DNA of 32,000 nucleotides from contig CAUJDS010000062.1 of the NCBI GenBank assembly GCA_963169695.1, positions 10,792 through 42,791 of the forward strand, given 5' to 3'. The notes beneath the pieces were generated by a model that saw only the letters and a list, made by a program, of their open reading frames with translations, had not been told where the DNA came from and searched no databases. Source of the stretch: Bdellovibrionota bacterium (GTDB lineage Bacteria > Bdellovibrionota > UBA1018 > CAUJDS01). Below, piece by piece: positions 7,065-25,152 of the stretch. Positions within the stretch are counted from its first letter, which is position 1; every line of letters starts with the position of its first letter. Position numbers and translations under genes: made by a program.

Positions 7065-7082
7065 AAGCCCTTCCTTTTCAAA

Positions 7083-10524: not shown

Positions 10525-10535
10525 GAAGTTTTGAA

Positions 10536-12335
10536 TTATGCGGCTAAGTAGAGCTGATCAATGAGATGGCTGAACTTGCGCTCCACAATGTGACGCTTGA
10601 GCTTGAGGGTAGCGGTCATTTCTCCACTATCTACTGTGAACTCTCGTGCAAGTACGACAAAGCTCTTCACTTTTTCGTACCCTGCAAGATTGGCATTCAC
10701 ACCATCAACGACTCGTTGAATCCGGGCGAGGATATCTGGATCCGTTACAACACTCTCTTCACCAATGGCTCCGGGTTTGTCCTTTGCCTTTTTAATTTCT
10801 GCCTCTGACAAAGTGATTAAAGCAGAAATGAATTTTCTACCTTCCCCCACCATGCAGACCTGAGCGATCATGGGAGATTCTTTAATCTTTTCTTCGATGG
10901 GTAAAGGGGCAACCATTTTTCCGCCCGATGTTTTCAATACTTCTTTTTTTCTACCACGGACAACAAGGCTACCATCTCCTCGAAATTCTCCGATATCTCC
11001 TGTGCGAAACCACCCATCCGTAAAGGTCTCATCCGTCGCCTTCGGATTCTTGAAATACCCCTTAAATACGTGGCGACCACGCGTCCAAATTTCTCCATCT
11101 TCAGCAATTTTGATCTCCGCACCGGGAAGTGGGACTCCCACCGTACCAATGCCTTCGCCGCCTAGCATTTCGTAGACATATGCTCCGGAGCATTCGGTCT
11201 GCCCCAAAGTATTGAGCACTCGCACGCCAATCTTACGAAACCACCGAACCACATTCTCAGGGAGTGCAGCGGCACCCGAAGCACAAGCAATGCTATTGCC
11301 TAAACCGAGAGCCTTGCGCACCTTCGATAAGACCAAGCGATCGGCGAGCTTGTATTGGATCAGATCCGAGAATCCAATCCCGCCTTCTCCGCCAATCCTT
11401 GCGTTGGTTACACGCTCGCCAACGGCCATCGCCCAACGAGCCATTTGCTGACGAGGGGAAGGAGCATCCGCCAAACGCTGTTCTACGCCTTCCATCATTT
11501 TTTCCCAGAGCCTTGGCACCGAGAGAAGAAGCTTGGGCTGAACCTCTGCCAACTCAGAGGAGACACTGTCAAAGTTGGAACAAAAACTCACGGTAAGTCT
11601 GCCCAGAATCCCTACGCCAATACCGTGTTCTTTCTCGGCAACGTGACAAAGCGGAAGAAACGAAAAAAGATCTCCCTTTCCTACCGGTAGATTCCAAACC
11701 TGAATCGCTCCCTGCGAAACAAAGGCGAGGTTGTCGAGAGAAACCATTGCCCCTTTGGGATTACCGGTTGTTCCAGACGTGTAGACCAGAAAAGCACCGG
11801 AATCTTTGTTGAGCCTAGCCAAGAAATAATCGGGCTTCTTATATTTGGCCAGTTCCATCCCCTGACGAATGGCATCTTCATAAGACACAGCTTTGGAAGA
11901 TATACTTGTATCACCATCATAGACAATAATGAGTTCAACATGGGCCGGAAGGGGATTTTCCTGCTGAGGGCCGGTAATTTTTAAAAAATACTCTCGGTCT
12001 TGAACTGCCAAAACTCGCGCTTTGGTTTCACTCAGAATGAACTCAATATCTTTGAGGCTGGCATTGGGATAAAGCCCACTAGATTTTGCTCCCAACAGAA
12101 TCATTCCGAGATCTGTATGCACCCACTCCGGACAATTGTAGGCAAAAATAATACTGACATCTTCGACACCGATTCCTCGGGACTCCAAAAAGAGGGCCAT
12201 CGCAAATACATGTTCCCAGTAGTCGCGTGCGCTCAGAGTCTTCCACTGACCAGCTTCTTTGTAACGCTGTGCGGGATGATTTGGATTCTGTTCCGCCCAT
12301 TTGGCCAAGTCGTGAAGCAATGGTGACATAAGCAA
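10536..12335 (-). CDS. Long-chain fatty acid--CoA ligase (AMP-dependent synthetase/ligase)
   Basis: The AMP-binding signature LVYTSGTTGNPKGAMVS is present. Also seen are GQTE, WFRTGDIGEF, and the C-terminal KLKR lysine motif. Confidence 0.85.
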   Translation of the reverse strand: MLMSPLLHDLAKWAEQNPNHPAQRYKEAGQWKTLSARDYWEHVFAMALFLESRGIGVEDVSIIFAYNCPEWVHTDLGMILLGAKSSGLYPNASLKDIEFILSETKARVLAVQDREYFLKITGPQQENPLPAHVELIIVYDGDTSISSKAVSYEDAIRQGMELAKYKKPDYFLARLNKDSGAFLVYTSGTTGNPKGAMVSLDNLAFVSQGAIQVWNLPVGKGDLFSFLPLCHVAEKEHGIGVGILGRLTVSFCSNFDSVSSELAEVQPKLLLSVPRLWEKMMEGVEQRLADAPSPRQQMARWAMAVGERVTNARIGGEGGIGFSDLIQYKLADRLVLSKVRKALGLGNSIACASGAAALPENVVRWFRKIGVRVLNTLGQTECSGAYVYEMLGGEGIGTVGVPLPGAEIKIAEDGEIWTRGRHVFKGYFKNPKATDETFTDGWFRTGDIGEFRGDGSLVVRGRKKEVLKTSGGKMVAPLPIEEKIKESPMIAQVCMVGEGRKFISALITLSEAEIKKAKDKPGAIGEESVVTDPDILARIQRVVDGVNANLAGYEKVKSFVVLAREFTVDSGEMTATLKLKRHIVERKFSHLIDQLYLAA

Positions 12336-12411
12336 TCCCCTTACTACTCTTTTAGATCAAAAATTTAAAATTGAGAACCTGTTTGACTTCGGCGCTACAC
12401 GAAATAGAATC

Positions 12412-13434
12412 GTGCGTGGGTTGAACATGGGGGAGCTTGAAGTGACAAATACAAAATGCTGGGGCTTTTTAGCCATTTTGACAGCCATGGTCGCAACAGG
12501 TTGCGACGCATCTCCTGGGAGCACGACTTCCTCCCTCACTCCCCCGACGGCTCGAGCATTGCGGCCAAATAGTGCGCCATTGCCAGAAAATTTTGAAGTC
12601 GACCGAATGGTAGATCAGATCAAGCAAGCCGATCCGCAAAATGAAAGTGAGATGATCCAACTCACCTCTCAGCTGGTTGCTTTTCTACCGCAAGGGCCAG
12701 GTACCGATCCCGATGAAACAGCAAAAGTACTTTTCAGGCTCCTCCGCGTTGGAAAGAGCCCCGAGGTTCGCAAAAACGCAATCATTGGCCTGGGGCTACT
12801 AGGAGATTCTGGCGAAATTGCGATACCCTTTCTTCTCCAAACACTCGGCGATTTGGCAATGCGAGCGGAAGATCCTTCGACGCCCTTCTTTGGAATGGAA
12901 GAGGCCATTCGTTCAACCCTTGGTATGAAGGGACTTGGAGTACGAACCGTCAAGATCATTAAGACCTTGTTTCAGGATGGTCGGCAACTCGATGGTGACC
13001 GTTCTCAAGCACTTCTGATAGCTGCCATGCTCGCATCAAATGGACCCAATGGTGGACTAAGCACTACCTCCAATGAAGCGATAGAAATTTTAGGAATGAT
13101 CCAACAAGTCCTTTTATTGCCCGAGACGACGTCCTTCCCTCTTATGAATCAAGGCAGAACTCATTCTACATTATTGGAGAGCCTCGCTTATCTCGGTCCC
13201 ATTGCGGAGCCGGCATTGGTAGCTCTCTACAAGGAATATGATCGAGTCCAACTACGTATTTTCAGCGACTCAGCTATCACGGGAGACATCAACCACGGCA
13301 CGCATCTCCTCAAGGTCATTCACAGCATTGAAGCCGCTATTCAGGCTGAAAAGGAAAAAGTAATTCTCCCACCATCTCCACCTCCAGCTGAGCCAGCTCC
13401 GGAGACACCTAAAGACCCAGAAAAGCCGAATTGA
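12412..13434 (+). CDS. Lipoprotein with HEAT-like repeats and Pro-rich C-terminal tail
   Basis: The signal peptide and lipobox-like sequence is FLAILTAMVATGC. A HEAT/PBS-lyase-like repeat reads VRKNAIIGLGLLGDSGEIAIPFLLQTLGD. The tail is PPSPPPAEPAPETPKDPEKPN. The maximal ORF is given. The likely true start is GTG 12442 (GGGGGAG at 12429-12435, 6-nt spacer) or ATG 12427. Confidence 0.6.
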   Translation: MRGLNMGELEVTNTKCWGFLAILTAMVATGCDASPGSTTSSLTPPTARALRPNSAPLPENFEVDRMVDQIKQADPQNESEMIQLTSQLVAFLPQGPGTDPDETAKVLFRLLRVGKSPEVRKNAIIGLGLLGDSGEIAIPFLLQTLGDLAMRAEDPSTPFFGMEEAIRSTLGMKGLGVRTVKIIKTLFQDGRQLDGDRSQALLIAAMLASNGPNGGLSTTSNEAIEILGMIQQVLLLPETTSFPLMNQGRTHSTLLESLAYLGPIAEPALVALYKEYDRVQLRIFSDSAITGDINHGTHLLKVIHSIEAAIQAEKEKVILPPSPPPAEPAPETPKDPEKPN

Positions 13435-15214
13435 TTGCGGGAAATCTCGCAACAACCGAAGATAGGCTTGCAGGAGTTCTACCTTCTTGCGACAGGACAT
13501 CAACTCCGCTTGGAGCATAGAGCGTTAAGTACCAGTAATAATTGCGGGCAATGAGTGAAACGTAATCACGCGTTTCAGAAAAAGGAATCAAATCCAAAAA
13601 GAGCATTCGATTCTCGGTAGGATAGCGATCTACCCACTTCTTTACATTGCGAGAACCAGCATTGTAAGCCGCGAGTGACAGTTCAGCATCTCCACCAAAT
13701 TCTTTGAGCAACTCATGAAAATGATGCACACCTAAAGCAATATTCGTCGCTGGCTGAAACAACGCACTTCTAGAAACATGTGCAATTTGGCGCGCAGTAG
13801 CTGGCATCAATTGCATCAATCCCACTGCACCTGCTGGGGACCGCGCGTAGGGCACAAATCCACTCTCCTGCCGAATCAATGCCGCTGCTAAGTAGGGATC
13901 CACTCGCCCTCGTTGCTTCCAAAGACTTTCGTAAAATCGAACAGGGAAGAACATTTCTAAAGTATCTCGCGTTATCCAGAGAGGATCATTGCGAAAGAGG
14001 TCTCCGAGTACTTGAAAAGCCGGAATCTGCAAACCCGCTCGATTGGCCAGCACAGCGATATACGCTTGAAATTCAGGCTCGGTGCCAGTCAGGTCCTGCC
14101 TCACTTCTTTGAAAATCGCACGAGTGAGGTCAGCCTCGTTCAGCTGGAGAAGCGCTTCAAAGGTTCGAACCTTCTGATTAATTGCGGGGTCCTTCATGGT
14201 TCGAAATTGAATCTGCGGTGTGCCACCCATATAAATAAGATTCGAAACCTCTAGCACTGAGCCGCCCCGAATACTCAGATGGTGGTAACCAAGTGGGTTG
14301 GCCTTGAGAAGGCGCGACTGCAATATCTGAAACCTAAGCTTGTCTCCTGATTTTCTAGCGCACCATGCATTCCAATAAAGGGCACGCGTAACAAAATCGC
14401 CATTTTTTTCGTCCGCTAGTAGTTCTAAGTGAGGTCGTGCACTTTGACAGTCTCCATCCAGAATATCCAAAAGACTGAGTCTAAAGACAACCTTACGAAT
14501 GTCTTCAGAGTCGGGTAATTCACTACCTACATAGCAACTGGCCACTCTCTCATAGAGCTTATGTGTAATTGTGCGATTTTCTTCATTTGGAAAATATTCT
14601 TCCGACTTGGATCCCAGCGCAAAATAAAGCTCTGCAGATGCACAAGACTTCTGCTCGATCAACGCATTGGCGGTTGAACGAAGATCCGACCACTCTGAAA
14701 TCAGTTTCAAACTTTTCCAAAGATCTTTGCGATTGAGTGTGTTGAGTTCAGTGAGTTTGGCTTCTTTCCAAAGTGCCAATAGGCTGCCTGGACTTGGGCG
14801 TATGGATCGTGCCAGCGAGGACTCCCCTTGTGTTTTTTCTTTCGGAAGGTAAGCACAAAATGGATCCGAAAAATCCGAGAGACAATGCGCAAGGTATTCA
14901 GCTTGAGCTTGGGACTTCATCTTTTTATTCAAGAAGGCGGCGTAGTTCTTGGCCTGCAACAAGAGGAGCTTGCGATCCTCGGGAGCAAGGCTTTCAAAGT
15001 CAAAACCCAGTAACTTCTCATGATAGACCTGCTTCAGTGGGCGACGCTCGAGCTTGAGGTCTCCTCCTTTGGGCCAGTTGGGGCTTTGCGCGTGGGGCGG
15101 TACCGAAGTATCGGGCGAATTAGGGGTCGCCTGTGTAGAAAAGGCAATCCCCATCCAGGTCAGAATAAAGACGGTCGTCAGAAATCGTAAGTTGAGAGAA
15201 TGCCTTGGCCCCAC
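13409..15214 (-). CDS. slt: Soluble lytic murein transglycosylase (Slt70-like; superhelical N-domain plus SLT domain)
   Basis: A signal peptide is present (FLTTVFILTWMGIAFSTQA). The C-terminal SLT domain has the catalytic Glu in AALIRQESGF, followed by AVGLMQLMPATA and AAYNAG. The start is GTG. Confidence 0.85.
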   Translation of the reverse strand: MGPRHSLNLRFLTTVFILTWMGIAFSTQATPNSPDTSVPPHAQSPNWPKGGDLKLERRPLKQVYHEKLLGFDFESLAPEDRKLLLLQAKNYAAFLNKKMKSQAQAEYLAHCLSDFSDPFCAYLPKEKTQGESSLARSIRPSPGSLLALWKEAKLTELNTLNRKDLWKSLKLISEWSDLRSTANALIEQKSCASAELYFALGSKSEEYFPNEENRTITHKLYERVASCYVGSELPDSEDIRKVVFRLSLLDILDGDCQSARPHLELLADEKNGDFVTRALYWNAWCARKSGDKLRFQILQSRLLKANPLGYHHLSIRGGSVLEVSNLIYMGGTPQIQFRTMKDPAINQKVRTFEALLQLNEADLTRAIFKEVRQDLTGTEPEFQAYIAVLANRAGLQIPAFQVLGDLFRNDPLWITRDTLEMFFPVRFYESLWKQRGRVDPYLAAALIRQESGFVPYARSPAGAVGLMQLMPATARQIAHVSRSALFQPATNIALGVHHFHELLKEFGGDAELSLAAYNAGSRNVKKWVDRYPTENRMLFLDLIPFSETRDYVSLIARNYYWYLTLYAPSGVDVLSQEGRTPASLSSVVARFPAINSAFLGL

Positions 15215-15238
15215 AGGTTCTCATCGGTGCGGGGACCC

Positions 15239-15344
15239 AGGTACTAAAGGTACAAGGTACGGACTTACTTGTGAGACCTGATGCGTCATTCTGATTCGTC
15301 GAATTAAAATGACGCGCTGGCATGTTGAAACTAGCTTCGTACCT
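15239..15344. repeat. Repeat copy A: 3x AGGTAC, a 34-bp unit shared with 19829-19862, and a decayed right arm
   Basis: AGGTAC occurs at 15239, 15248 and 15255. gtacggacttacttgtgagacctgatgcgtcatt at 15257-15290 matches 19829-19862 at 32/34 positions. Weaker similarity (9/12) extends to 15302. The region 15321-15342 matches the right palindrome arm of copy B at only 11/22 positions, ending in cGTACCTA (15338-15345). Confidence 0.85.
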
Positions 15345-15357
15345 ACCAGTAAAAGCG

Positions 15358-16224
15358 TTATCGGCGTGGCGCAGTCCAGGTCTGGACCGAAAAGGGCTGG
15401 GTCGGACGGTCCACGTGGATTTCGCGAATCGGGTTCTGCCTTTCCATGAAAAGCAGAACCTTCCAGGCCGGAGTCCGATGCACCCGACCGAAGTAAACCC
15501 TTTCGATCTGAGGCTGAGGACCTTCGAAAGGGTGGACAACCGTCAGGGGTGACTCAAATAGGATTGCTGCCTGCCATAACGATGAGTCGCCTGTGGCAAG
15601 ATCGATCTCCACCCCGCCATCCGACTGAATCGCATATTTGACCCCGTCCAGGGAGGGGTTGGCCGTGAGCAGTTCTCGGATCGTCACAGGGTGCGTGACC
15701 CACTCCACGGTGGCGCCTAGCTGTTGGAGGAAGAGTTCGTCCGATACTTTAGACACCGCTAGGAAAAGAACAGACTGATCCTCGGCCAATTCGCTGTGCG
15801 CGTCCAAGAGGTCCGCGGCTTTGGCATGCAGGGTGCCTGGCAGTTCATCCACACTAGCGTACGAAAGCACCCTACCCCGAGGGAGAAGGCTTTGAGCGTA
15901 GGCCAATAGTTCGAATCCACTGAGTCGAACTACTCCGGGGGCGCCGCCCCCTACCGGAGGTGTTTCGACAAAATGAATTGCATGCAACAGCCTCCATGCC
16001 CGCATTAAACGCGGGAGCGACTTACTCGTGTGGTGGAGTCCCGGACGGATCCGAATTTCTCCAGTAGGACAGGCCCTGCCCCCGCGGAGAATTTTGAAGT
16101 CGTTGTGATCCGAAATCAACGCTATCTGCGATAGCCCCAAAGGACAGTCCCGACCCGAGCCGGAACCAAACGCGGTCCCCGCCGACACGAAGATCAATAA
16201 CAGTGTGCGGGTCTTGTTCAACAT
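15358..16224 (-). CDS. Hypothetical secreted protein (orphan, GC-rich)
   Basis: This 288-aa ORF is the only long ORF in the interval. It has an N-terminal signal peptide (MLNKTRTLLLIFVSAGTAFG) and no recognisable domain. Hand-counted GC over seven 60-nt lines is 238/420 (57%), against 40-53% in sampled lines of neighbouring genes. Confidence 0.55.
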   Translation of the reverse strand: MLNKTRTLLLIFVSAGTAFGSGSGRDCPLGLSQIALISDHNDFKILRGGRACPTGEIRIRPGLHHTSKSLPRLMRAWRLLHAIHFVETPPVGGGAPGVVRLSGFELLAYAQSLLPRGRVLSYASVDELPGTLHAKAADLLDAHSELAEDQSVLFLAVSKVSDELFLQQLGATVEWVTHPVTIRELLTANPSLDGVKYAIQSDGGVEIDLATGDSSLWQAAILFESPLTVVHPFEGPQPQIERVYFGRVHRTPAWKVLLFMERQNPIREIHVDRPTQPFSVQTWTAPRR

Positions 16225-16314
16225 CGATCCGCACCATACTATACGTGCGAATCCATTTCCAAAGACTCCTCGGCGACGAACCAGCAGGAATGAACAACAT
16301 AAGCTAAGGAGCCG

Positions 16315-16343
16315 TTGACATATCTAATTAGTTATAGTACTTT
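16315..16343 (+). promoter_or_regulatory. Candidate sigma70-type promoter giving a leaderless toxin-antitoxin mRNA, with palindromic spacer
   Basis: The -35 is TTGACA (16315-16320), followed by a 17-nt spacer and a -10 of TACTTT (16338-16343, keeping T1, A2 and T6). The predicted TSS is about 16350, the A of the toxin ATG. No SD precedes the ATG. The spacer contains the perfect 8-bp palindrome ctaattag (16324-16331), a possible operator. Confidence 0.4.
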
Positions 16344-16349
16344 TTAGCT

Positions 16350-16634
16350 ATGTGGGTCGTGCTCGAGCACAAGTCCGTAGTTAAAGAGCTTAAGCGGTGC
16401 CCCAACCACATTGCGGAAGAGTATGAACTCTGGCGAACAACCGTGGAAAACTCGGGTCCCTACTCCGTAAGGAAAATTCCGGGATATCGAGACCATGCGC
16501 TTGAGGGAAAATGGAAGGGTTTTCGTTCGTCGTCCTTGGACCGAAAATGGCGAGTTATTTATCAAATCCATGATGATGAAATCATGGTGCAAATAGAGGA
16601 GGTAACAGCTCATGACTACCGGAAGAAAAACTAG
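16350..16634 (+). CDS. Type II toxin, RelE/StbE-family mRNA interferase (HigB-like gene order: toxin first)
   Basis: The 94-aa protein has KIPGYRDHALEGKWKGFRSSSLDRKWRVIYQIHDDEIMVQIEEVTAHDY. This matches the RelE/StbE pattern (G..K..RS.RL....R.IY.I......V..V..H.Y). It overlaps the downstream HTH gene by 23 bp. Confidence 0.8.
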   Translation: MWVVLEHKSVVKELKRCPNHIAEEYELWRTTVENSGPYSVRKIPGYRDHALEGKWKGFRSSSLDRKWRVIYQIHDDEIMVQIEEVTAHDYRKKN

Positions 16635-16902
16635 ATCGTTGCTTGGTAGCGGTCATTACGTGGTGGGCAAACGACGAGTGAGCCTTACAACGGGCGATAT
16701 CGTTCGTATGCTTCGAGAGAAAAATGAACTTACCCAGCTCCAATTGGCTCAAATCACTGCCCTAAAGCAGAGCACCATTTCCGCCATTGAAAAGAACAGA
16801 ATAAGCATCGGAATCGAGCGGGCGAAGGTGCTGGCAAAAGCTCTCCATGTCCATCCATCGACCCTCGTATTTCATGATTGGCAACAAGACGACGCTGCTT
16901 AG
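16612..16902 (+). CDS. XRE-family HTH antitoxin (HigA-like)
   Basis: The 96-aa protein has a Cro/C1-type HTH (LREKNELTQLQLAQITALKQSTISAIEKNRISIGIERAKVLAKAL). It appears translationally coupled to the upstream toxin. Confidence 0.8.
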   Translation: MTTGRKTRSLLGSGHYVVGKRRVSLTTGDIVRMLREKNELTQLQLAQITALKQSTISAIEKNRISIGIERAKVLAKALHVHPSTLVFHDWQQDDAA

Positions 16903-16934
16903 TGGATTCGGGAATTCGGTACCTAAACGGGAAG

Positions 16935-19796
16935 TCACGGTTTCTTCTTCAAAACCTTAGCCAAACACCTCCGGAAAAACCCGGGTCCTTCCGGTGGAAG
17001 GTAGCGTCTCTTAATAGGCTTGCCCCAATCGTCCAATTGAAAGGCAACCGCTCGCCTAAATTTCCAGGAGCGCAATAAGTCTCTGGTTTCGACCGGAAGA
17101 TCATTCTTCTGCTTCAGAACATCCGCAAGCTGCACAAGTTGGCTGGCTTCCATTCCCCACCGCTCTTTGTACCAACGGTTCTTAGTTTCGGACCATTCCC
17201 TGCGCGCTTCTAGCATTTTCTCCATTTTCGCTTTCAAAACACTGTGAAGGTTTGCCCAGACATCTTCAGGCAAGGTTGGGCGAGCGGTAACGAATTTCAT
17301 TGCGCCACTTTGAACGTCAGTACCGCGATTGTTCAATAAACTGTTGACGACTTTCCAAACGTTGACGGGAGGTTCTGGCATGTTTTTCTTGCTGCTTAAC
17401 TCCTCTAAAACCAACGCTTGAAAGCGGGCCTTACCTCCCACGACATGGACGCTGAAAACACCCCCTTCATCCGCTAGCTGCTGAAAGACCTGCCTCCAAT
17501 ATCCGGGATGGTGACTTGCTTGGGGAATATCCGCCAGTTGAACACGATCTCCCGTTGCCCCCAGAAAATCCCAATAGGCATCATCCCATCGAGCAACGTC
17601 CGATGCATTTGCGCCCTGGACCCGAGGATTGTCTCGAATGCCAATGTCGGGAAGAATATCGGCCAATTTTCCCAAGTTGTTTTGATTTCGGTAGAAAACC
17701 TGCTCAACCGCGATCCAGGTTGATGGCTTCCAGTTCTTTTTTTTCCTCAGCAGGTGCGCCAAAGCAAAAGATTGTACTCTCCTATCAGGATGCGCCAAGA
17801 GACTCTCCAGTTGTAATAGAGTTTCGTCGCCCCACTTGCCCAGGACACCCTTCACTCTTTGCAAGTAGACGGCGTGCTCGCGTTCACGACTTCTATACGT
17901 TTCCGCACCTTCATCCCAAAGTGACAAGCGATCGCCAGGCCCAAAGTCGAGTGCATGTTTCGTCCAAGCTTCCAAAGTAGCGGTAAGAATGAGTTGTTCG
18001 GGAAGGGTCTCCGCCTTTGCGACAAACTCCGGAAGATCCCGTATGAAACCTGCCGATGCGGGAAGGGCACGTTCAGTGACTTGTCGATAGCTCTTGAGAG
18101 TAGGAACTTCCTTTATCAAAGACTCTAAGGAGGAATCTCTTAAGGCTGCCTCCAATGCTTGGATCGCAAACTCGGCATGACTGGAATGATTTAAAGCCTC
18201 GGACAAGAAATTCATTCGCCTCGCCGAGGCACCTCCGCCAAAAATGGCACGAATCGTGGACGGTTTTCTCATGTAACTGCCGAGAAAAGCGTCCGTTACA
18301 TCCACGGTCTGAGTTTTTTCTAGGAGAACACGAAACCGCTCGATATCTTGCGGATCCGTTTCGGGATTGAGAAGGGAAGCCAATGCGCGCGCCACCGACG
18401 CGTGCTCTTCCTTCGACAGAGTTGGATCTTCCAATTGTCGTTCAAAGGTGAAAAACAACGTGTCTAACGTTAAAGGCAGAACTGCACGAATCTGAGCCCT
18501 ATCTTTAAGAACCAGACGACCGTCATAGTTCTTAGCGGCCGACGGCTCCACTTCCAGCGCGATCGCTACATCACCAAAGGATAGTTGATCCGCACCTTTC
18601 GCGCAGTAAAGGCCCGGCCCTAAAACGGCCGTTGAAGATTTACCTTGAATGAACATTGTTCCATTTGAAATCCAAAGTGCCCCATTCGCCATCGACTGAG
18701 CCGCGGCAAGGGAGGTTCGATGAAGAAACACCTCGGCTGCTGCTCCACTTGCAATGGCCTTACCCTCAGGAAGCGGATCAAAAATGCGGTACTTGGCAAC
18801 TCCCGCTTCTTTCGCCAACGTCGTCACTCCATACTCATCTAGGAGTCTGCGAGTGTGAAGAGAACCTCCTGAATAAAGCTGCGCCTTCTCCAGCGCCTCG
18901 ACAATTTTGCCGGAAGCGGTGGTGGCCTTTGCACCATAATACTGAAGTTCCTCATGCCCCGTTTTCAAAAAGGCCAAGGCTTCCTTCAAATGATTTTGCC
19001 GAATGTCTTGCAGAAGCGAGCGAATAGCCGACTGCGAAGTTGCAGACAAATGCATATCCGGATACTCCGAACCGTAGCGCAACCACCGCAATACTTGCTT
19101 GAGTTTGGCGAAAACCGCGTTCTGATTCTTAAATTCCGGATTAAGACGAAAATCCAGTTCTCTTTTCTGAAACTGCTTCACGCCCCACTCGGCGAGGTTC
19201 ATCGGCTTACCGTCCACCTGGGCTTGAAGCTCGGACAAAAACACAAATCCTTGAGGCCCAATAGGAATATTAGAAATCGCTTCAAAGTGCTCAAGCTGTG
19301 GACGAAACCTGGGATCTTTTAAAAAATCTGCCGCAATCTGGATGTCCAAATTTTTAAAGAAAATATTTCCCGGTAGCTCCTTTTGAATACCAGCGATGAC
19401 TTTTGAGTAATCTGGCTTGGACTTAACATTTGATTGGGCATCCTTCGCGATCAACATCAGATCCAAGTCACTTTGAATTCGATGCCAATCAAAGAGATGC
19501 AAGCGAGGTCGGCTCTCTACCCATTGTCGATACGCGTCGACCCCTCCCAATTCGTGCATCTTCTTGCGCATGAAGACCAGGATTTCCCGAGACGTCCCTC
19601 CATAGGTGACAAGGTCTGCGCCGTGTTGTTGAGCCAGAATCCGTGCTGCCCGAATTTCAAGCACAAGGTCTGTGGTCTTACCCGCGAGCTCTCCAAGCTC
19701 CTGGACATTCAGCGAATCAAAGTCGCGCCCAAACGTCCAAGGCGACGCCATCAGCGCTGTAACCAATCCGAGAATGAACACACCCCTACCCCTCAA
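16935..19796 (-). CDS. Large secreted protein of unknown function (about 953 aa)
   Basis: This is an uninterrupted 2.87-kb ORF. The SD AAGGAG (19804-19809) is 7 nt from TTG 19796, whereas the track's GTG 19802 is only 1 nt from the SD. The N-terminus MRGRGVFILGLVTALMASPWTFG is a signal peptide. I recognise no family; motif-level hints are listed in findings. Confidence 0.75.
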   Translation of the reverse strand: MRGRGVFILGLVTALMASPWTFGRDFDSLNVQELGELAGKTTDLVLEIRAARILAQQHGADLVTYGGTSREILVFMRKKMHELGGVDAYRQWVESRPRLHLFDWHRIQSDLDLMLIAKDAQSNVKSKPDYSKVIAGIQKELPGNIFFKNLDIQIAADFLKDPRFRPQLEHFEAISNIPIGPQGFVFLSELQAQVDGKPMNLAEWGVKQFQKRELDFRLNPEFKNQNAVFAKLKQVLRWLRYGSEYPDMHLSATSQSAIRSLLQDIRQNHLKEALAFLKTGHEELQYYGAKATTASGKIVEALEKAQLYSGGSLHTRRLLDEYGVTTLAKEAGVAKYRIFDPLPEGKAIASGAAAEVFLHRTSLAAAQSMANGALWISNGTMFIQGKSSTAVLGPGLYCAKGADQLSFGDVAIALEVEPSAAKNYDGRLVLKDRAQIRAVLPLTLDTLFFTFERQLEDPTLSKEEHASVARALASLLNPETDPQDIERFRVLLEKTQTVDVTDAFLGSYMRKPSTIRAIFGGGASARRMNFLSEALNHSSHAEFAIQALEAALRDSSLESLIKEVPTLKSYRQVTERALPASAGFIRDLPEFVAKAETLPEQLILTATLEAWTKHALDFGPGDRLSLWDEGAETYRSREREHAVYLQRVKGVLGKWGDETLLQLESLLAHPDRRVQSFALAHLLRKKKNWKPSTWIAVEQVFYRNQNNLGKLADILPDIGIRDNPRVQGANASDVARWDDAYWDFLGATGDRVQLADIPQASHHPGYWRQVFQQLADEGGVFSVHVVGGKARFQALVLEELSSKKNMPEPPVNVWKVVNSLLNNRGTDVQSGAMKFVTARPTLPEDVWANLHSVLKAKMEKMLEARREWSETKNRWYKERWGMEASQLVQLADVLKQKNDLPVETRDLLRSWKFRRAVAFQLDDWGKPIKRRYLPPEGPGFFRRCLAKVLKKKP

Positions 19797-19828
19797 GTAC
19801 ACACTCCTTCAGGTGTTTATCGGATACT

Positions 19829-19895
19829 GTACGGACTTACTTGTGGGACTTGATGCGTCATTTTGATGCGACGAGTCCCACAAGTAAGTCCGTAC
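19829..19895. repeat. Repeat copy B: 67-bp palindromic element (perfect 22-bp arms, 23-nt loop)
   Basis: The left arm gtacggacttacttgtgggact (19829-19850) is the exact reverse complement of agtcccacaagtaagtccgtac (19874-19895). The loop tgatgcgtcattttgatgcgacg contains tgatgcg twice. The left arm plus 12 loop nt form the direct repeat of 15257-15290. Confidence 0.9.
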
Positions 19896-19939
19896 CTAAA
19901 CGAGTACCTAAACGAACAAGTAAGTCCGTACCTAAACGA
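19892..19939 (+). repeat. Iteron-like 12-mers GTACCTAAACGA x3, within a 24-nt duplicated block
   Basis: gtacctaaacga occurs at 19892-19903, 19904-19915 and 19928-19939. The 24-mer acaagtaagtccgtacctaaacga occurs at 19880-19903 and 19916-19939. An 11/12 copy (gtacctaaacg) lies at 16919-16929, between the antitoxin stop and the stop of the 953-aa gene. Confidence 0.85.
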
Positions 19940-20101: not shown

Positions 20102-21622
20102 ATGCAGCGATACGTCACACGGGCTCAACCATTCTGGCGATTGTTCGTAGTCGCCTTGGCACTAACTACGGGAGCTTGTTCTTCTTATAAGGCTACCTCC
20201 CTCGAGGATGACGCCCTCTTTGTCGAAGGCATGAGTCACTTCAATCGAGGGGACTACGAAAAAGCAATCCTAGCCTTCAATGCCTTATTGGACAAAAATC
20301 CAAAAGCGTCCGATCAGCAGCGTCGTCCGGTGGTAGCAGCGCTGAGCGAGTCCCATGCAGGAGCCTCTCGATTCTCCATTTTGGGCCTTGTAGACCTTCT
20401 GAACTCACTAGCCTCTACCAATCTCAGCTCGGATCCAACCATTAGGAACTATGGGTTGTTGTTTAGAAATCTTATCCATAACCTAAGGACGGGTCTCACA
20501 CTAGTACCCGCGCTTGATGCTCGTCAGGCGTTTCACCTCAATAAAGCAATAGAGCTTTCTGAGTTTCTTTATGAGAACCGCAATGATCCGTTAGGAAAGC
20601 TCAAACTTGGTAGCATCTCATTGTATTCACTCATGGTCCACGCTAAGACTTTCTTAAGATGGCTCGCCGAAACAGAAATTTCGACCGATCGTGCAAGAGA
20701 GCAATTTACGGCGGCGATTCAGCACATTCGTCAACTACAAATTGATTTCTATAGGACTGCCAAGGCTCTTCGCGGAAGTTTTCCTCAAATCGCGAATCCA
20801 GCCGGTGAGTTTGAATCAAAAATATTGCTGGCACTCAATGGACCTTTCAACGTGCCAAATCAAGTCGGCTTCACCTTCCAAAATGAAGCTCAGAACTATA
20901 TTCCGTATTTCATCCCTGCTATTCTCGAACAGACCTTTCGATCCAAGGCTTTTGCAGTAAGGGCTTTGACAGCCGCATACGAAAGCCTTGACCTAGATCA
21001 CGCTCTCCAAAGACCCGAAGAATGGACGATTCAATTCCTTATGGGCGCCTTTTCCTATTCGGATCCCTATGTCTCTAGACAATTGGCTTCAGAACACCAA
21101 GACGACTCGCAGCTGAAGTTGATTGCTGCAATAGACGTACTATTCGATGCCTTTAAGGCTTTTCAATTCAATGACAATACCCGAACTCGCCTTCCCGAAC
21201 TCGAAGAACGCTTTGCTCAATTCCAAATGGCTCTATTCCTTACTTATCAAAAAGCATTGCGCGAGGAACTGAGCGCTGAGTTGAGTCAACCGATAAGCGA
21301 CCGAGCCCCAGCATTTCAAGAAGTCTCCCAACTTACAGTCTACTTGGCAGGAAGAAGCAGAGAGCTTGCCATCTATGAAGTCGGTGATGATTCTCTTATT
21401 TATCTAGAGCGGCAGGTAGCGTTAGTATTTCAGGAACTCAAAAATAGAATCTTTGGTCAAGATCCTCCGGCCAGCACAGGTGGCGTCGGCGGGGTCCGCG
21501 GCGGAATCGAACCTCCAACGGGCGTCCGCGGTGGTGGTGGAGTTGGTGCAGTCAACCCAAACACTCCACCTCCAGGTCCACCGGCAGTCAACCCAAATCG
21601 ACCAGGACTTCGATGGCTCTAA
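20102..21622 (+). CDS. TPR-containing lipoprotein with Gly/Pro-rich repetitive C-terminal tail
   Basis: An SD aggggaa lies 8-9 nt upstream. The signal peptide and lipobox are FVVALALTTGAC. A TPR-like helix pair reads EGMSHFNRGDYEKAILAFNALLDKNP. The tail reads GGVGGVRGGIEPPTGVRGGGGVGAVNPNTPPPGPPAVNPNRPG, with gcagtcaacccaaa repeated at the DNA level. Confidence 0.7.
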   Translation: MQRYVTRAQPFWRLFVVALALTTGACSSYKATSLEDDALFVEGMSHFNRGDYEKAILAFNALLDKNPKASDQQRRPVVAALSESHAGASRFSILGLVDLLNSLASTNLSSDPTIRNYGLLFRNLIHNLRTGLTLVPALDARQAFHLNKAIELSEFLYENRNDPLGKLKLGSISLYSLMVHAKTFLRWLAETEISTDRAREQFTAAIQHIRQLQIDFYRTAKALRGSFPQIANPAGEFESKILLALNGPFNVPNQVGFTFQNEAQNYIPYFIPAILEQTFRSKAFAVRALTAAYESLDLDHALQRPEEWTIQFLMGAFSYSDPYVSRQLASEHQDDSQLKLIAAIDVLFDAFKAFQFNDNTRTRLPELEERFAQFQMALFLTYQKALREELSAELSQPISDRAPAFQEVSQLTVYLAGRSRELAIYEVGDDSLIYLERQVALVFQELKNRIFGQDPPASTGGVGGVRGGIEPPTGVRGGGGVGAVNPNTPPPGPPAVNPNRPGLRWL

Positions 21623-21639
21623 GCAACAGACCTAGGGAC

Positions 21640-22692
21640 TCAAAAGTAGAGGGATAGACCGCCTCCATACTGTCGCGTAGGATACTGTCCAAAGTTATCA
21701 AGTACTCTTTCCATAGTAAAAAAATGGACTTCAATGGGTCTGAGTTTGAAACGAAGAAAAGCGCCAAGCCGATATCGGTCCCAAAGAAACAAGTCCAGAT
21801 TGAACAACTCAGAGAAACCTACCTGAAGCCCAAGCTGAAGGGTCCTATCCCAATCGTAGTTTCCTCCAAAAAAGGGCGCCAGGGATAATTTCAATTTTAA
21901 AGTATCTACGAGTCCCCCACTCCAGAGAACTGCAAGATTCTTACTATGAACGCCTATCCGAGCCTCCCAATAACTTGGACGATTCTGAATCAGCGAGACT
22001 CCTTGCACACTGAAATGAATCGAAGAATGAAGCTCTCGAGTGAGATCAACCGAGGCAAGGGTACCCACTTCAACTACGGGCAAATAGGGAACTTCCTGAA
22101 TCTTCACTATGGGTTGGTTTTCGACGAGGTCGCCGATATCATAAGTTGGAAAAAGCAACCTGCGAGAACCATATGTTATTTTTGGTTTTAGTCGCAACCT
22201 TGGAGTGACCCTGACCCCGTAGGAAGTCGTAAATAAGAAATCATTAAATAGAACTCCTCGAAGTTCAGGGAAAACCGGATTATTTGGCTGAAAGATTGTC
22301 CCAGCATTGACTGAAAAGCTCTGCCAAATCCCGCGGTAGGATCCAGCTATTCCAATACTGGCGTTTGCAACGTAGGGAGTCCCCATATTGCTCTCCAGCT
22401 CTCCACGCACTCTAGTGGAATCCCCACTGTCCGCGGCATTGAATAGCCTAAACAAAGCGCCATGAGAGACAAAGATGGATCGGGACTTGAAGTGTGTACT
22501 CTCAGAGGAAGGCGGTCGATCATGAAAGAGTACCCATTCCTCCAGACTCTCGCTGCTGGATAGGCGCAGGGTGTGTGCCTCAATAAAGTTCAGTCCGTGC
22601 GCGTAGGACAAATCATGGAATAGAATGCTTGCCACGAAGAAAAGGCAGCGCCCTAGCAAAAGCTCCAAACCTAACCGAGTGGAAGAGTGCAC
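21640..22692 (-). CDS. Putative outer-membrane beta-barrel protein
   Basis: The 350-aa protein has a hydrophobic N-terminus and amphipathic strand-like segments throughout. It ends ...YGGGLSLYF with a terminal Phe, an OMP C-terminal signature. I recognise no specific family. Confidence 0.6.
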   Translation of the reverse strand: MHSSTRLGLELLLGRCLFFVASILFHDLSYAHGLNFIEAHTLRLSSSESLEEWVLFHDRPPSSESTHFKSRSIFVSHGALFRLFNAADSGDSTRVRGELESNMGTPYVANASIGIAGSYRGIWQSFSVNAGTIFQPNNPVFPELRGVLFNDFLFTTSYGVRVTPRLRLKPKITYGSRRLLFPTYDIGDLVENQPIVKIQEVPYLPVVEVGTLASVDLTRELHSSIHFSVQGVSLIQNRPSYWEARIGVHSKNLAVLWSGGLVDTLKLKLSLAPFFGGNYDWDRTLQLGLQVGFSELFNLDLFLWDRYRLGAFLRFKLRPIEVHFFTMERVLDNFGQYPTRQYGGGLSLYF

Positions 22693-23703: not shown

Positions 23704-24273
23704 ATGTCGCGCCCTTCTGGAAAATTTGTCCTTCGAGTCGAACCCGAAACACACGGATTGCTTCGAGAGGCCGCTGTTAGGGAGAAGGCTTCACTCAACG
23801 AAGTTTGCAATCGACTGATTCAACGCGGCCTAAAGGGTAGTCAGCCCTACGAGCAGGTGTTGTCTTGCGCTCGAGAATTTCTCGACGAGCAATTGCCAGG
23901 GGTCGTGCTCATCGGATCGCAAGCTCGGGGCACTGCGACTGCTCGGTCCGACGTGGACTTTCTTGTCATTGTTGCTCCAGAGGTAAAAATCGACTCTGCT
24001 CTCTATAGACGCTGGGAGCGTTTCAAAAAAGATCTCCCCGAGCAGTATTCCGTCCATTTTGTTCACTCGCCCGATCCAGAAAGGCCTTCCGGCATATGGC
24101 TAGAGGCTGCCCTCGAAGGCCAGATCCTCGTCGATCTGGATGGTATCGGGACCGTACTTCAGAGACTGCGATGTGCGATCGCCTCGGGCGTATTTTGCCG
24201 AAGGCTTTCTCACGGCCAGCCCTATTGGACTCAAAATAGAACAGAAAAGGGAACAAAAGAACGTGCAAAATGA
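23704..24273 (+). CDS. Ribbon-helix-helix (Arc/HicB-like) domain fused to an MNT-type nucleotidyltransferase
   Basis: Residues 1-45, FVLRVEPETHGLLREAAVREKASLNEVCNRLIQRGL, fit the Arc/RHH pattern. The Pol-beta NTase core follows as VVLIGSQARGTATARSDVDFLVIV (GS...DxD). Confidence 0.8.
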   Translation: MSRPSGKFVLRVEPETHGLLREAAVREKASLNEVCNRLIQRGLKGSQPYEQVLSCAREFLDEQLPGVVLIGSQARGTATARSDVDFLVIVAPEVKIDSALYRRWERFKKDLPEQYSVHFVHSPDPERPSGIWLEAALEGQILVDLDGIGTVLQRLRCAIASGVFCRRLSHGQPYWTQNRTEKGTKERAK

Positions 24274-24670
24274 AAGCCTTGCAAGAGACTACCTGATTCG
24301 TTGTGAAAAGCGACTCAAGGCCCTGAAAGTCCTTCTGGATGAGCAGGCCTATCCAGATGTGGTTCGTGAAGCACAGGAGGTTGTGGAACTAGCTTTGAAG
24401 GGCCTGCTTCGTTTTTCGGGGGTCGATGTTCCTCGCGTCCACGATGTATCAGGCGTACTGAATGCCGAAGTGAAGCGGCTTCCTAAAGACTTGTCAGCCA
24501 AGGATCTTCAGAGAATGTGCGCTATTTCCAAGGCACTTCGTAAGGATCGAGAACTCGCCTTCTACGGAAGCGAAGACTTAACACCTGGAGAATTCTACAA
24601 TCAGGAAGACGCACAGGTTGCCCTCAAAGACGCAACATGGGTCGTGCAGTCGGTTCGGAAGTGGGTCTAA
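24263..24670 (+). CDS. HEPN domain protein (partner of the MNT nucleotidyltransferase)
   Basis: The protein is an all-helical bundle (ARDYLIRCEKRLKALKVLLDEQAYPDVVREAQEVVELALKGLL...RKDRELAFYG) typical of PF05168-type HEPN. The start is set at GTG 24263, overlapping the NTase stop by 11 nt. The track start 24140 would overlap by 134 nt. No clean Rx4-6H motif is visible. Confidence 0.7.
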   Translation: MQNESLARDYLIRCEKRLKALKVLLDEQAYPDVVREAQEVVELALKGLLRFSGVDVPRVHDVSGVLNAEVKRLPKDLSAKDLQRMCAISKALRKDRELAFYGSEDLTPGEFYNQEDAQVALKDATWVVQSVRKWV

Positions 24671-24708
24671 ACAATTTGGCAGGCACGGATTTCAGCATTG
24701 CGATCAAT

Positions 24709-24987
24709 TTATCTACCTGGAAAAAGCTTCCGGTCAAAAAGAAACGGGCCCAACGGAATGCATGAGATGAAAACGGCCAGGGCAACCTTGTATTGTGACC
24801 ACTGAAGTTCGTTACGCAGGACCTGAGCCCCCAGGCAGTACACAACAAAAAGGAGGCCGTGAATCATTCCCACCACTCGAACAGCTTCAGGAATACCTGC
24901 CAAGTACTTCAAAGGCATCGCGATAAAGAGGAGAACCAAAAGCGAGCTGGCCTCGATCAATCCAAGCATTCGAAATTTCGATTTCAT
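24709..24987 (-). CDS. DUF3817 (YdzA-like) small membrane protein
   Basis: The 92-aa protein reads LGLIEASSLLVLLFIAMPLKYLAGIPEAVRVVGMIHGLLFVVY...IPLGPFLFDRKL. This matches the conserved MPLKY...G..HG..F..Y...PFG.F..D pattern of DUF3817. Confidence 0.75.
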   Translation of the reverse strand: MKSKFRMLGLIEASSLLVLLFIAMPLKYLAGIPEAVRVVGMIHGLLFVVYCLGAQVLRNELQWSQYKVALAVFISCIPLGPFLFDRKLFPGR

Positions 24988-25152
24988 AGTATGCCGAACC
25001 CTCTAACACCGGTAAGAGTGAATTTCTATGTTTGAGATGAAGTGAAGGCTTGATGTCGAACTACGCGAAATCTAACGCATCAAATCTTATCGCATTTTTT
25101 ACCATCTTTTTCTCATTGACTATATCCAACAAAAGGCCGACTATTATAGGGT

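What the first reader, a model, noticed from the sequence alone, without database searches (positions are those of the whole stretch)
15239..19939. Four-gene accessory islet bracketed by a 34-bp direct repeat and inverted GTACCT triplets
The 34-mer gtacggacttacttgtgRgacYtgatgcgtcatt occurs at 15257-15290 and 19829-19862. The copies are 32/34 identical, in the same orientation, and 4572 bp apart, with weaker similarity for about 12 more nt. The outer flanks carry AGGTAC x3 on the left (15239, 15248, 15255) and its complement GTACCT x3 on the right (19892, 19904, 19928), so the two ends mirror each other. Everything inside is non-housekeeping: a GC-rich secreted orphan, a RelE/XRE toxin-antitoxin pair and a 953-aa secreted orphan. 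The bordering genes, slt and a TPR lipoprotein gene, are divergent, as if the block was inserted into their shared intergenic region. There is no integrase or transposase inside. It could therefore be a non-autonomous or fossil mobile islet, or a cassette recombined between copies of a REP/MITE-like element. The combination of two secreted orphans with an addiction module, delimited by structured repeats, is the most likely place here for an undescribed system, such as a secreted effector locus or accessory predation or defence module.
Basis: partly seen in the sequence, partly recalled or inferred. Interest (0 to 1): 0.7.

Follow-up and report, generated by a model that had tools for sequence, protein, structure and literature searches.

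The report
Dispersed palindromic repeats flanking mosaic accessory genes
The two repeats are real, but they are copies of a small hairpin-forming DNA element scattered between genes in Bdellovibrio-like bacteria, and the four genes between them are a patchwork with separate histories rather than one mobile island.

Summary

**The repeats**
- The 34-mer is one arm plus half the loop of a hairpin element with arm GTACGGACTTACTTGTGGGAC.
- The right copy is a complete 67-nt palindrome (DNA fold -30.8 kcal/mol, z -13).
- The left copy is decayed and carries a solo terminal-repeat scar of an IS30-family insertion sequence.
- A third relic lies inside the "islet", at 16913-16929.
- The same arm occurs at 15 or more mostly intergenic loci in three other Bdellovibrionaceae genomes. 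There it sits next to ordinary genes such as sodB and divIVA.
- The GTACCT triplets are short tandem duplications of the arm terminus. One 36-bp unit is absent in a 99.8%-identical strain.

**The genes**
- The RelE/XRE toxin-antitoxin cassette recurs at 79% nucleotide identity in an unrelated context.
- The 288-aa gene is GC-rich and has one detectable homolog.
- Relatives of the 955-aa protein sit in other contexts. Its N-terminus models as a nucleotidyltransferase fold, possibly followed by a PARP-like domain.
- The "bordering" TPR gene is itself an orphan.
- The variable slot runs from slt to grx (15.2-23.0 kb), well beyond the right repeat.
- In a near-identical strain, an intact IS30-family element sits inside the right hairpin, and similarity to the window ends there.

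**Verdict:** an apparently undescribed member of the REP/MITE-like kind that marks a plastic region. It is not a discrete islet.

The parts
13409..15214 (-). slt (lytic transglycosylase), the conserved left anchor of the variable slot
   Evidence: Pfam SLT 1.9e-30. Orthologs at 42-46% identity keep the same left-hand synteny.
15239..15260 (+). AGGTAC x3: short tandem partial duplications of the arm's outer terminus (stutter)
   Evidence: Sequence. Similar terminal stutters flank other family members: L050, L009, L025, L023 and L007.
15257..15302 (+). Left element: arm GTACGGACTTACTTGTGAGAC (15257-15277) plus a half loop shared with the right site; the second arm is lost
   Evidence: (D1). No hairpin is predicted (z -1.4).
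15313..15344 (-). Solo terminal-inverted-repeat scar of an IS30-family IS (15313-15338), next to GTACCT (15339-15344), the outer remnant of the lost second arm
   Evidence: 27/30 identical to the IS left end plus GGTAC in L007. Pattern hits occur only here, in L007 and in this genome's own strains. The L046 transposase is IS30 family, NF033563 7.7e-62.
15358..16224 (-). 288-aa orphan; the N-terminus reads as a signal peptide by eye; GC 57.6%, GC3 63%
   Evidence: No Pfam, NCBIfam or PADLOC hit. One homolog (31% identity, E 6e-22) among 1.84 billion representatives. Composition.
16310..16902 (+). Self-contained type II TA cassette with the toxin first: RelE/YafQ-like toxin 16350-16634, XRE-HTH antitoxin 16612-16902
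   Evidence: Pfam YafQ_toxin and HTH_3, TIGR02385. Positions 16310-16901 are 79% nucleotide-identical to L034/L035, which sit in an unrelated context, and the similarity stops at the cassette ends.
16913..16929 (+). Relic of a third element: AATTCGGTACCTAAACG, 15/17 to the right site's arm end plus flank, at the junction between the TA cassette and the 955-aa gene
   Evidence: D2; the 11-mer occurs 4 times against 0.21 expected; the 17-mer at up to 3 mismatches occurs 3 times against 0.05 expected.
16935..19802 (-). 955-aa orphan; the N-terminus reads as a signal peptide by eye. A conserved N-terminal 480 aa holds a pol-beta-type nucleotidyltransferase-like fold (about aa 30-340) and a possible PARP/ART-like module (about aa 355-445). 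The C-terminus is helical and modelled at low confidence.
   Evidence: Seven distant homologs at 34-39% identity. Invariant YGGTSRE...SDLDL and HRT...GPGLY motifs. AF2 pLDDT 86, pTM 0.84. Foldseek: CCA/A-adding enzymes at E 1e-4 to 5e-3 and probability 0.98-1.0; PARP1/2/16 at probability 0.14-0.44.
19829..19895 (+). Right element: complete 67-nt palindrome with arms at 19829-19849 and 19875-19895 and an apical GCGTC motif
   Evidence: I2. DNA fold -30.8 kcal/mol, z -13. Family alignment and covariation.
19880..19939 (+). Tandem stutter at the right flank: a 36-nt duplication (24-nt exact copies at 19880 and 19916) containing GTACCTAAACGA x3. It creates a third partial arm.
   Evidence: (D4). 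It is absent in the 99.8%-identical strain L027 and in L046.
20102..22692 (.). Rest of the variable slot outside the repeat pair: TPR lipoprotein orphan (20102-21622, +) and a 350-aa orphan (21640-22692, -)
   Evidence: The TPR protein has no homolog except itself. The 350-aa protein has no Pfam, NCBIfam or PADLOC hit. Relatives hold a single unrelated 639-686-aa gene between slt and grx.

Best explanation
**What it is.** The repeats are copies of a non-coding, hairpin-forming interspersed element family of Bdellovibrionaceae. The arm is (AG)GTACGGACTTACTTGTGGGAC. The inner stem and loop vary, and the loop carries an asymmetric apical GCGTC motif. Whole elements are 49 or 67-74 nt long.

**Where the copies sit.** Three copies or relics occupy consecutive intergenic spacers at 15.26, 16.92 and 19.83 kb. 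These spacers lie in a hypervariable slot between the conserved slt and grx genes.

**What the genes are.** The genes between the copies are a mosaic acquired separately:
- a GC-rich 288-aa orphan;
- an independently mobile RelE/XRE TA cassette;
- a 955-aa protein with a nucleotidyltransferase-like fold and a possible ADP-ribosyltransferase-like module, belonging to a small lineage-restricted family.

On this reading the bracketing is a by-product of the way these elements cluster in spacers. It is not the signature of one mobile islet.

**Shown:**
- family membership, intergenic dispersal and hairpin structure with compensatory changes;
- IS30-family insertion into the arm 5-7 nt from its outer end, seen as an intact IS in two other genomes and as a scar in the window;
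- strain polymorphism of the terminal stutter;
- a synteny break at the right hairpin in a near-identical strain;
- separate distributions of the genes.

**Inferred:**
- the elements spread in trans through an unidentified enzyme, or through recombination;
- the hairpins act as fragile or hot sites by three routes: as an IS target, as a replication-slippage site producing the GTACCT/AGGTAC stutters, and as short portable homology for gene swapping.
For: **Repeat and structure**
- Repeat anatomy and significance.
- Right site folds as a 67-nt hairpin; left site does not.

**Dispersal**
- The genome-contig scan gave 20 exact arms in 15 loci of three Bdellovibrionaceae genomes: HK-STAS-BDEL-4 (11 loci), ARS45 (2) and B. 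bacteriovorus kdesi (2). Most form inverted arm pairs.
- They are mostly intergenic, sit in every gene orientation, and often cluster 1-3 kb apart around single genes.
- Their neighbours include sodB, divIVA, a histidine kinase, DUF1993 and a methyltransferase.
- Stem statistics: 12 outer pairs are invariant, 6 inner pairs change on both sides, and 93.8% of cells are paired against about 24-38% in slid controls.
- No arms occur in 151 kb of repeat-independent loci from related organisms.

**Third relic:**

**IS30 evidence**
- IS30 scar in the window.
- Intact IS inside the arm in L046, where the right flank is 97.7% identical to L027 and the left flank is unalignable.
- Second full IS next to GGTAC in L007.

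**Strain polymorphism:** the 36-bp stutter is absent in L027.

**Mosaic gene content**
- The TA cassette recurs elsewhere.
- 955-aa homologs sit next to fliA, a cellulase, or an integrase with ParA.
- The 288-aa protein has one homolog.
- The TPR protein has none.
- The genes differ in GC content.

**Slot synteny:**
Against: - I could not count copies in the window's own genome. Only about 38 kb was accessible, and it contains only these sites. The claim of dispersal therefore rests on other genomes.
- No mobilising enzyme was identified. A tblastn search with E. coli RayT found nothing in 185 kb, which is not decisive.
- No target-site duplication or empty/filled site pair was found, so mobility of the element itself is inferred, not shown.
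- All four close strains with data (L027-L030) keep the block.
- The two flanking copies share loop sequence with each other and, among the copies found, only L024 (another genome) and L046 (the right site itself in a close strain) are comparably similar. That is also what a duplication tied to the block would produce.
Confidence: 0.7

Rival explanations
1. The block is a genuine, now non-autonomous mobile or exchangeable cassette. Its ends are the direct 34-46-nt repeats. It moves by recombination between hairpin copies, or as an IS30-flanked composite unit.
For: - Direct repeats share arm and loop: 32/34 identical, and 78% over 65 nt.
- An IS30 scar sits at the left end, and an intact IS30-family element sits in the right hairpin of a near-identical strain.
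- Similarity to that strain drops from about 98% to nothing at the hairpin/IS.
- The content is non-core.
Against: - A third relic splits the block.
- The TA cassette moves alone, with similarity ending at its own borders.
- The 288-aa and 955-aa genes differ in GC content and in distribution.
- The variable slot extends 3 kb beyond the right repeat.
- No recombinase gene lies in the window near the block.
- No empty site and no second copy of the block was found.
Confidence: 0.12
2. The hairpins are host-selected cis elements rather than selfish repeats. They could be a binding site for a conserved DNA-binding or nucleoid protein, or a regulon operator.
For: - The 17-21-nt arm is identical across lineages whose Slt proteins are at most 46% identical.
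- An apical GCGTC motif is conserved.
- Compensatory changes keep the stem paired.
- The right site lies in a divergent promoter region.
Against: - There is no consistent position or orientation relative to genes: 5', 3', convergent and divergent spacers all occur, and the motif strand is sense about as often as antisense.
- Many copies are decayed singles.
- Genome-specific subfamilies have near-identical loops, which suggests amplification.
- Neighbouring genes are functionally unrelated.
- Rfam gave no hit.
Confidence: 0.13
3. The four genes form one functional system, such as a secreted effector plus an addiction or defence module, and the repeats are incidental.
For: - Both orphans have N-termini that read as signal peptides by eye.
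- The 955-aa protein has an enzyme-like NTase fold and a possible ART module.
- A TA pair is adjacent.
Against: - No co-occurrence was seen. None of the six contexts retrieved for five 955-aa homologs holds a 288-aa homolog or this TA pair.
- The TA cassette occurs without the orphans.
- PADLOC gave no defence hit apart from the generic HTH domain.
- Gene orientations alternate (-, +, +, -), so there is no operon.
Confidence: 0.05

Closest known systems
REP / BIME / REPIN elements of Enterobacteria and Pseudomonas, with their RAYT transposases
   Same: Both are short, imperfectly palindromic, intergenic, multi-copy elements. Both have a conserved stem and a variable loop, form genome-specific subfamilies and cluster in spacers. 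Both are targets of insertion sequences (Tobes & Pareja 2006, PMC1525189).
   Different: - The terminal tetranucleotide is GTAC, not GTAG.
- Each arm is not itself a palindrome, so the element is one hairpin rather than a REP doublet.
- No RAYT was found in the DNA available.
- Copy number looks modest.
- The arm is identical across distantly related hosts.
- The outer ends carry short tandem stutters.
MITEs with terminal inverted repeats (Correia elements of Neisseria, ERIC/IRU)
   Same: Conserved terminal inverted repeats surround variable internal sequence. The elements are non-coding, intergenic and fall into size classes.
   Different: - They are much smaller (49-74 nt).
- No target-site duplication is evident.
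- No parent IS shares these ends. The IS30-family element found here has different terminal repeats and inserts into the element rather than mobilising it.
REP-targeting insertion sequences (IS1397/ISKpn1, IS621, ISPpu9/10)
   Same: An IS inserts at a fixed position and in a fixed orientation within a palindromic repeat. Here it is seen twice intact and once as a scar.
   Different: The transposase belongs to the IS30 family. The 2006 survey listed REP-targeting only for the IS3, IS110, IS4, IS256 and IS5 families.
Integron cassettes (attC) and Acinetobacter pdif modules
   Same: Palindromic sites separate single accessory genes, including TA modules.
   Different: There are no GTTRRRY/RYYYAAC core sites, no XerC/D-type half-sites, no intI gene nearby, and gene orientation is mixed.
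HigBA-type (toxin-first RelE-superfamily / XRE) type II toxin-antitoxin modules
   Same: A RelE/YafQ-family toxin is followed by an overlapping HTH_3 antitoxin gene. The cassette is found in unrelated genomic contexts.
   Different: Nothing unusual. It is an ordinary member of this kind.

Membership tests
REP/REPIN (RAYT-associated) | Short imperfect palindrome located between genes | tested here: met
   Hairpins of 49-74 nt, mostly intergenic, in 15 loci. The right site folds at -30.8 kcal/mol.
REP/REPIN (RAYT-associated) | Conserved GTAG tetranucleotide at the foot of the hairpin | tested here: not met
   The terminus is GTAC in nearly all copies.
REP/REPIN (RAYT-associated) | Cognate RAYT (Y1 HUH transposase) gene in the genome, itself flanked by the repeats | tested here: inconclusive
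   tblastn with E. coli RayT found no hit below E 0.99 in 185 kb of held Bdellovibrionaceae DNA. Whole genomes were not searchable.
REP/REPIN (RAYT-associated) | High copy number (tens to hundreds per genome) | tested here: inconclusive
   There are 14 exact arms in 11 loci of MAG HK-STAS-BDEL-4. Only 3 sites occur in about 38 kb of the window's genome. A full census was not possible.
MITE | Terminal inverted repeats | tested here: met
   17-21-nt arms, with the outer 12 pairs invariant.
MITE | Target-site duplication flanking each copy | tested here: not met
   No consistent direct duplication was seen in about 20 sites. The flanks instead extend the palindrome (AG...CT) or carry stutters.
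MITE | Autonomous IS with matching ends | tested here: not met
   The only associated IS (IS30 family; L046, L007) has unrelated terminal repeats, GGAGCCAGTTTCAACTTGCCAG.
Genomic island / composite transposon | Integrase or transposase, defined ends, and the unit present or absent as a whole | tested here: not met
   No such gene lies inside the block. Only an IS scar is present. The genes have separate distributions. No empty site was found.
Integron cassette array | attC sites with R''/R' cores (RYYYAAC / GTTRRRY) and a nearby intI | tested here: not met
   The element ends are GTACGG...CCGTAC. No integrase domain was found in the flanking genes scanned between 12.4 and 31.5 kb.
Type II TA, RelE/ParE superfamily toxin with XRE antitoxin | Toxin family match above threshold, HTH antitoxin, overlapping bicistron | tested here: met
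   YafQ_toxin scores 31.9 bits against a cutoff of 30. TIGR02385 scores 39 bits against 27.9. HTH_3 scores 1.7e-11. The genes overlap by 23 nt.
Pol-beta superfamily nucleotidyltransferase (955-aa N-terminus) | NTase fold with G[GS]...DxD catalytic signature | tested here: inconclusive
   Foldseek probability 0.98-1.0 to CCA/A-adding enzymes, but with low TM scores (0.25-0.31). YGGTSRE and SDLDL are invariant among the 8 homologs. No Pfam hit. Activity was not tested.
H-Y-E ADP-ribosyltransferase / PARP-like (955-aa residues about 355-445) | ART fold with an H...Y...E triad | tested here: inconclusive
   H361-R-T and GPGLY399 are invariant. PARP1/2/16 hits are weak: E 0.02-0.4, probability 0.14-0.44.

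The most novel reading that the evidence does not exclude
The GTAC-terminated hairpins are recognised by a dedicated, still unidentified enzyme conserved across Bdellovibrionaceae genera. That enzyme nicks at the arm terminus, which would leave the AGGTAC/GTACCT stutters. It would also drive integron-like, hairpin-to-hairpin exchange of single accessory genes, including secreted NTase/ART-type effectors, among predatory bacteria. IS30-family elements would have evolved to home in on the same sites.
Probability: 0.1. Interest if true: 0.65.

Novelty: new member of a known kind. Interest (0 to 1): 0.3.

Why it matters
- **For annotators.** Repeat-bracketed blocks in these genomes should not be read as islands without a genome-wide repeat census.
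- **For Bdellovibrio biology.** It documents what appears to be an undescribed interspersed palindromic element shared by divergent predatory lineages; literature searches for the sequence and for Bdellovibrio REP/REPIN elements found nothing. It also documents an IS30-family element that targets this repeat, and a hypervariable slot next to slt.
- **A side lead.** It flags a small family of large proteins with secretion-signal-like N-termini and an NTase fold (plus a possible ART module). These are plausible, untested prey-directed effectors.
- **Limits.** None of this is surprising in kind. REP-like repeats, REP-targeting insertion sequences and mobile TA cassettes are all well known.

Tried and rejected
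- **Structured RNA.** Rfam, both strands at E up to 1, gave nothing relevant. I rejected a structured-RNA reading.
- **Terminator role.** No terminator-like site coincides with the hairpins, and L022 has its own terminator after the element. Rejected.
- **Hits in other phyla.**
  - The Brevibacillus hits are a coding 13-aa tandem repeat.
  - The other non-Bdellovibrionaceae 17-mer hits are compatible with chance. My own estimate is about 69 matches expected in 596 Gb at uniform base composition.
  - The metagenome scan gave only two relevant loci, L046 and L050.
- **Other collections.** The viral scan found 0 hits. Plasmid and phage BLAST of the whole block found no match.
- **Orthology of the slot genes.** The 639-686-aa slot gene of relatives has no detectable similarity to the two window proteins compared, the TPR-506 and 955-aa proteins.
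- **Recombination boundaries from SNPs.** SNP positions between the window and strain L027 show no clear boundary at the hairpins.
- **Full-length 955-aa model.** pLDDT was 61, and the only fold hits were generic helical-repeat proteins. I discarded it in favour of the N-terminal model.
- **Source contig.** The NCBI source contig (107 kb) could not be retrieved through P0009.
- **Literature.** Searches for the sequence and for Bdellovibrio REP/REPIN/RAYT found nothing relevant.
Full report
**1. Observation**

They are 32/34 identical, direct, and 4572 bp apart. Weaker similarity extends over 65 nt (78%). The AGGTAC and GTACCT triplets are at the stated coordinates. The 17-nt core GTACGGACTTACTTGTG matches four times in the window, against 0.01 expected from shuffles.

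**2. Anatomy of the repeat sites**

*Right site.*
- It is a near-perfect 67-nt palindrome at 19829-19895, with a 31-bp stem. Folded as DNA it gives -30.8 kcal/mol, z -13.
- Its outer flank carries a 36-nt tandem duplication with 24-nt exact copies at 19880 and 19916. That duplication produces GTACCTAAACGA three times and a third partial arm.
- A 99.8%-identical strain (L027, Logan ERR15459719) lacks exactly this 36 bp. The stutter is therefore recent and polymorphic.

*Left site.*
- It keeps one arm (15257-15277) and half the loop, and it does not fold (z -1.4).
- Where the second arm should be, there are 26 nt (15313-15338, minus strand) next to GTACCT (15339-15344).
- Together these are 27/30 identical to GGTAC plus the left terminal inverted repeat of an IS30-family element found intact in L007 and L046.
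- The left copy is thus a decayed hairpin with an IS scar.

*Third site.* AATTCGGTACCTAAACG at 16913-16929 matches 15/17 to the right site's arm end plus flank. It lies in the 33-bp gap between the antitoxin gene and the 955-aa gene. The "islet" is therefore subdivided by the same element.

**3. The repeat is a dispersed family**

- One scan of 185,579 species-representative genomes with the 17-mer returned 26 loci. Fifteen are in Bdellovibrionaceae: MAG HK-STAS-BDEL-4 (11 loci, 14 exact arms), MAG ARS45 (2 loci) and B. bacteriovorus strain kdesi (2 loci). The window's own genome was not among the hits.
- In these loci the arm usually occurs as an inverted pair enclosing a variable inner stem and loop. 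The size classes are 49 nt and 67-74 nt. "Single" arms are decayed hairpins.
- Across 14 hairpins the outer 12 base pairs never vary. Six inner pairs change on both sides. 93.8% of cells are paired, against 24-38% when partners are slid.
- An asymmetric apical RGCGTC motif recurs.
- Copies are mostly intergenic. They occur in divergent, convergent and co-directional spacers, with the motif strand sense or antisense about equally often.
- Neighbouring genes include sodB, divIVA, a histidine kinase, DUF1993 and a methyltransferase.
- Copies often cluster 1-3 kb apart around single genes (L007, L009, L015, L025). Bracketing of genes is therefore a general habit of the family.
- Controls:
  - 151 kb of related DNA fetched for other reasons holds no arm.
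  - The viral collection holds none.
  - The Brevibacillus hits are a coding 13-aa repeat, so they are chance matches.
- Rfam found nothing. No paper in the library mentions the sequence or a Bdellovibrio REP/REPIN element.

**4. Hot-spot behaviour**

- L046 is a 1.4-kb JGI contig. Its hairpin and TPR-upstream region are 97.7% identical to strain L027.
  - It carries an intact IS30-family element (313-aa transposase, NF033563 7.7e-62).
  - The IS sits inside the left arm of the right-site hairpin, between GTACG and GACTTAC, with an apparent 2-bp GA duplication.
  - To the left of the IS the sequence is unalignable with the window. It encodes the start of a different protein whose N-terminus reads as a signal peptide.
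- L007 holds a second full copy next to GGTAC and a degenerate arm.
- Counting the window's scar, the same IS end meets the same arm position in the same orientation three times.
- REP-targeting insertion sequences are known, but the 2006 survey lists only the IS3, IS110, IS4, IS256 and IS5 families (PMC1525189).
- Short tandem duplications that include the arm terminus flank about 8 of 20 sites. They occur at both window sites and in L050, L009, L025, L023, L007, L004 and L010. I attribute them to slippage at the hairpin foot. That is an inference.

**5. The genes**

- **288-aa protein.**
  - The N-terminus reads as a signal peptide by eye.
  - No family hit.
  - One homolog among 1.84 billion representatives (31% identity).
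  - GC is 57.6% against 49.5% for the window.
- **TA pair.** A RelE/YafQ-family toxin is followed by an overlapping XRE antitoxin gene.
  - Positions 16310-16901 are 79% nucleotide-identical to a cassette in an unrelated context: next to a PemK TA, DUF1064, SRAP and cation-efflux genes in L034/L035.
  - The similarity stops at the cassette borders.
- **955-aa protein.** It has seven distant homologs at 34-39% identity, which share only the N-terminal half.
  - Five of them were looked up, giving six contexts. These differ: downstream of fliA in two genomes, next to a cellulase and a secretin, and next to an integrase with ParA. None includes the 288-aa or TA genes.
  - An AF2 model of residues 1-480 (pLDDT 86, pTM 0.84) matches class II CCA/A-adding tRNA nucleotidyltransferases at E 1e-4 to 5e-3 and probability 0.98-1.0.
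  - It matches PARP catalytic domains more weakly, at probability 0.14-0.44.
  - This fits the invariant YGGTSRE...SDLDL and HRT...GPGLY motifs.
  - The fold assignment for the NTase domain is reasonable. The ART-like module is only a lead.
- **TPR lipoprotein "border" gene.** It has no homolog other than itself.

**6. Synteny**

- Relatives whose Slt is 42-46% identical (L036, L037) keep TauE-Grx-RNaseD-x-RF3-AMP-ligase-x-Slt on one side. On the other side they keep Grx-BolA-HhH-GPD-PolX-BioY-GAPDH-PGK.
- Between slt and grx they have a single 639-686-aa orphan with no detectable similarity to the window's TPR-506 or 955-aa proteins.
- The window fills that slot (15.2-23.0 kb) with the 288-aa gene, the TA pair, the 955-aa gene, the TPR-506 gene and a 350-aa orphan.
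- The variable region is therefore larger than the repeat-bracketed block.
- No arm occurs in the relatives' slot.

**7. Interpretation**

The best reading (confidence about 0.7) is as follows. A REP/MITE-like hairpin family sits in successive spacers of a plastic slot. The genes between the copies are an accreted mosaic.

The hairpins plausibly promote that plasticity as an IS target, a slippage site and short portable homology. The step from "marks breakpoints" to "causes exchange" is inferred.

Rival readings:
- a true exchangeable cassette or composite unit (about 0.12);
- a host-selected protein-binding palindrome (about 0.13);
- a four-gene functional system (about 0.05).

The family fails two defining tests for REP/RAYT elements: it has GTAC rather than GTAG, and no RAYT was found in the DNA held. 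It fails two for MITEs: no target-site duplication and no parent IS. I therefore file it only as a new member of the general kind "bacterial interspersed palindromic repeats".

**8. Limits**

- I could not read the rest of the source genome.

Noticed in passing
L046 214-1262; L007 4953-6004; window 15313-15338: An IS30-family IS (313-aa transposase; terminal repeats GGAGCCARTTTCAACTTGCCAGYGCAAC) sits at the same position and in the same orientation within the hairpin arm, next to GTAC(G). It is seen twice intact and once as a scar. REP-like targeting by an IS30-family element was not in the 2006 survey of REP-targeting insertion sequences.
   Followed up: partly
window 15239-15260 and 19880-19939; L050 37-95; L009 3346-3387; L025 5826-5851; L023 6330-6430: Outer flanks of many family members carry short tandem duplications that include the arm terminus (for example CCGTACCTTCG x4-5 in L050 and CACGGC x4 in L009). 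One such unit (36 bp) is polymorphic between 99.8%-identical strains. The mechanism is unexplained; slippage is assumed.
   Followed up: partly
window 16935-19802 (minus strand), residues 1-480: The 955-aa orphan belongs to a small family of 8 detectable members, each about 950-1250 aa. They share a conserved N-terminal nucleotidyltransferase-like fold and a possible PARP/ART-like module. In two genomes the homolog sits immediately downstream of fliA. It is a possible secreted effector of predatory bacteria.
   Followed up: partly
window 23704-26328: A second lineage-specific insertion relative to L036/L037 lies between grx/bolA and the HhH-GPD glycosylase gene. It holds an MNT (nucleotidyltransferase)/HEPN pair (23704-24670) and a DUF4143 AAA ATPase (25153-26328). 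Gene calls on the strain contigs also place a small DUF3817 gene between them.
   Followed up: no
L018 4060-4190 (uncultured Lachnospiraceae, CADBLW010000033.1): An intergenic stretch holds three consecutive GGTACGGAC...GTCCGTACC-type hairpins. One contains the exact 17-mer of the Bdellovibrionaceae arm. I cannot say whether this is chance, convergence or a related element in a different phylum.
   Followed up: no
L034 3035-4788 (Logan DRR438498): The homologous RelE/XRE cassette sits beside a PemK-type TA and a second XRE gene, near DUF1064 and SRAP genes. This looks like a TA-rich mobile or prophage-like region in an unrelated organism.
   Followed up: no
window 12756-14486: 17 of the 21 SNPs between the window and strain L027 over 6350-19903 cluster in 1.7 kb spanning the 340-aa gene and slt. 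The 6.4 kb to the left has none. This is possibly a small recombination tract.
   Followed up: no
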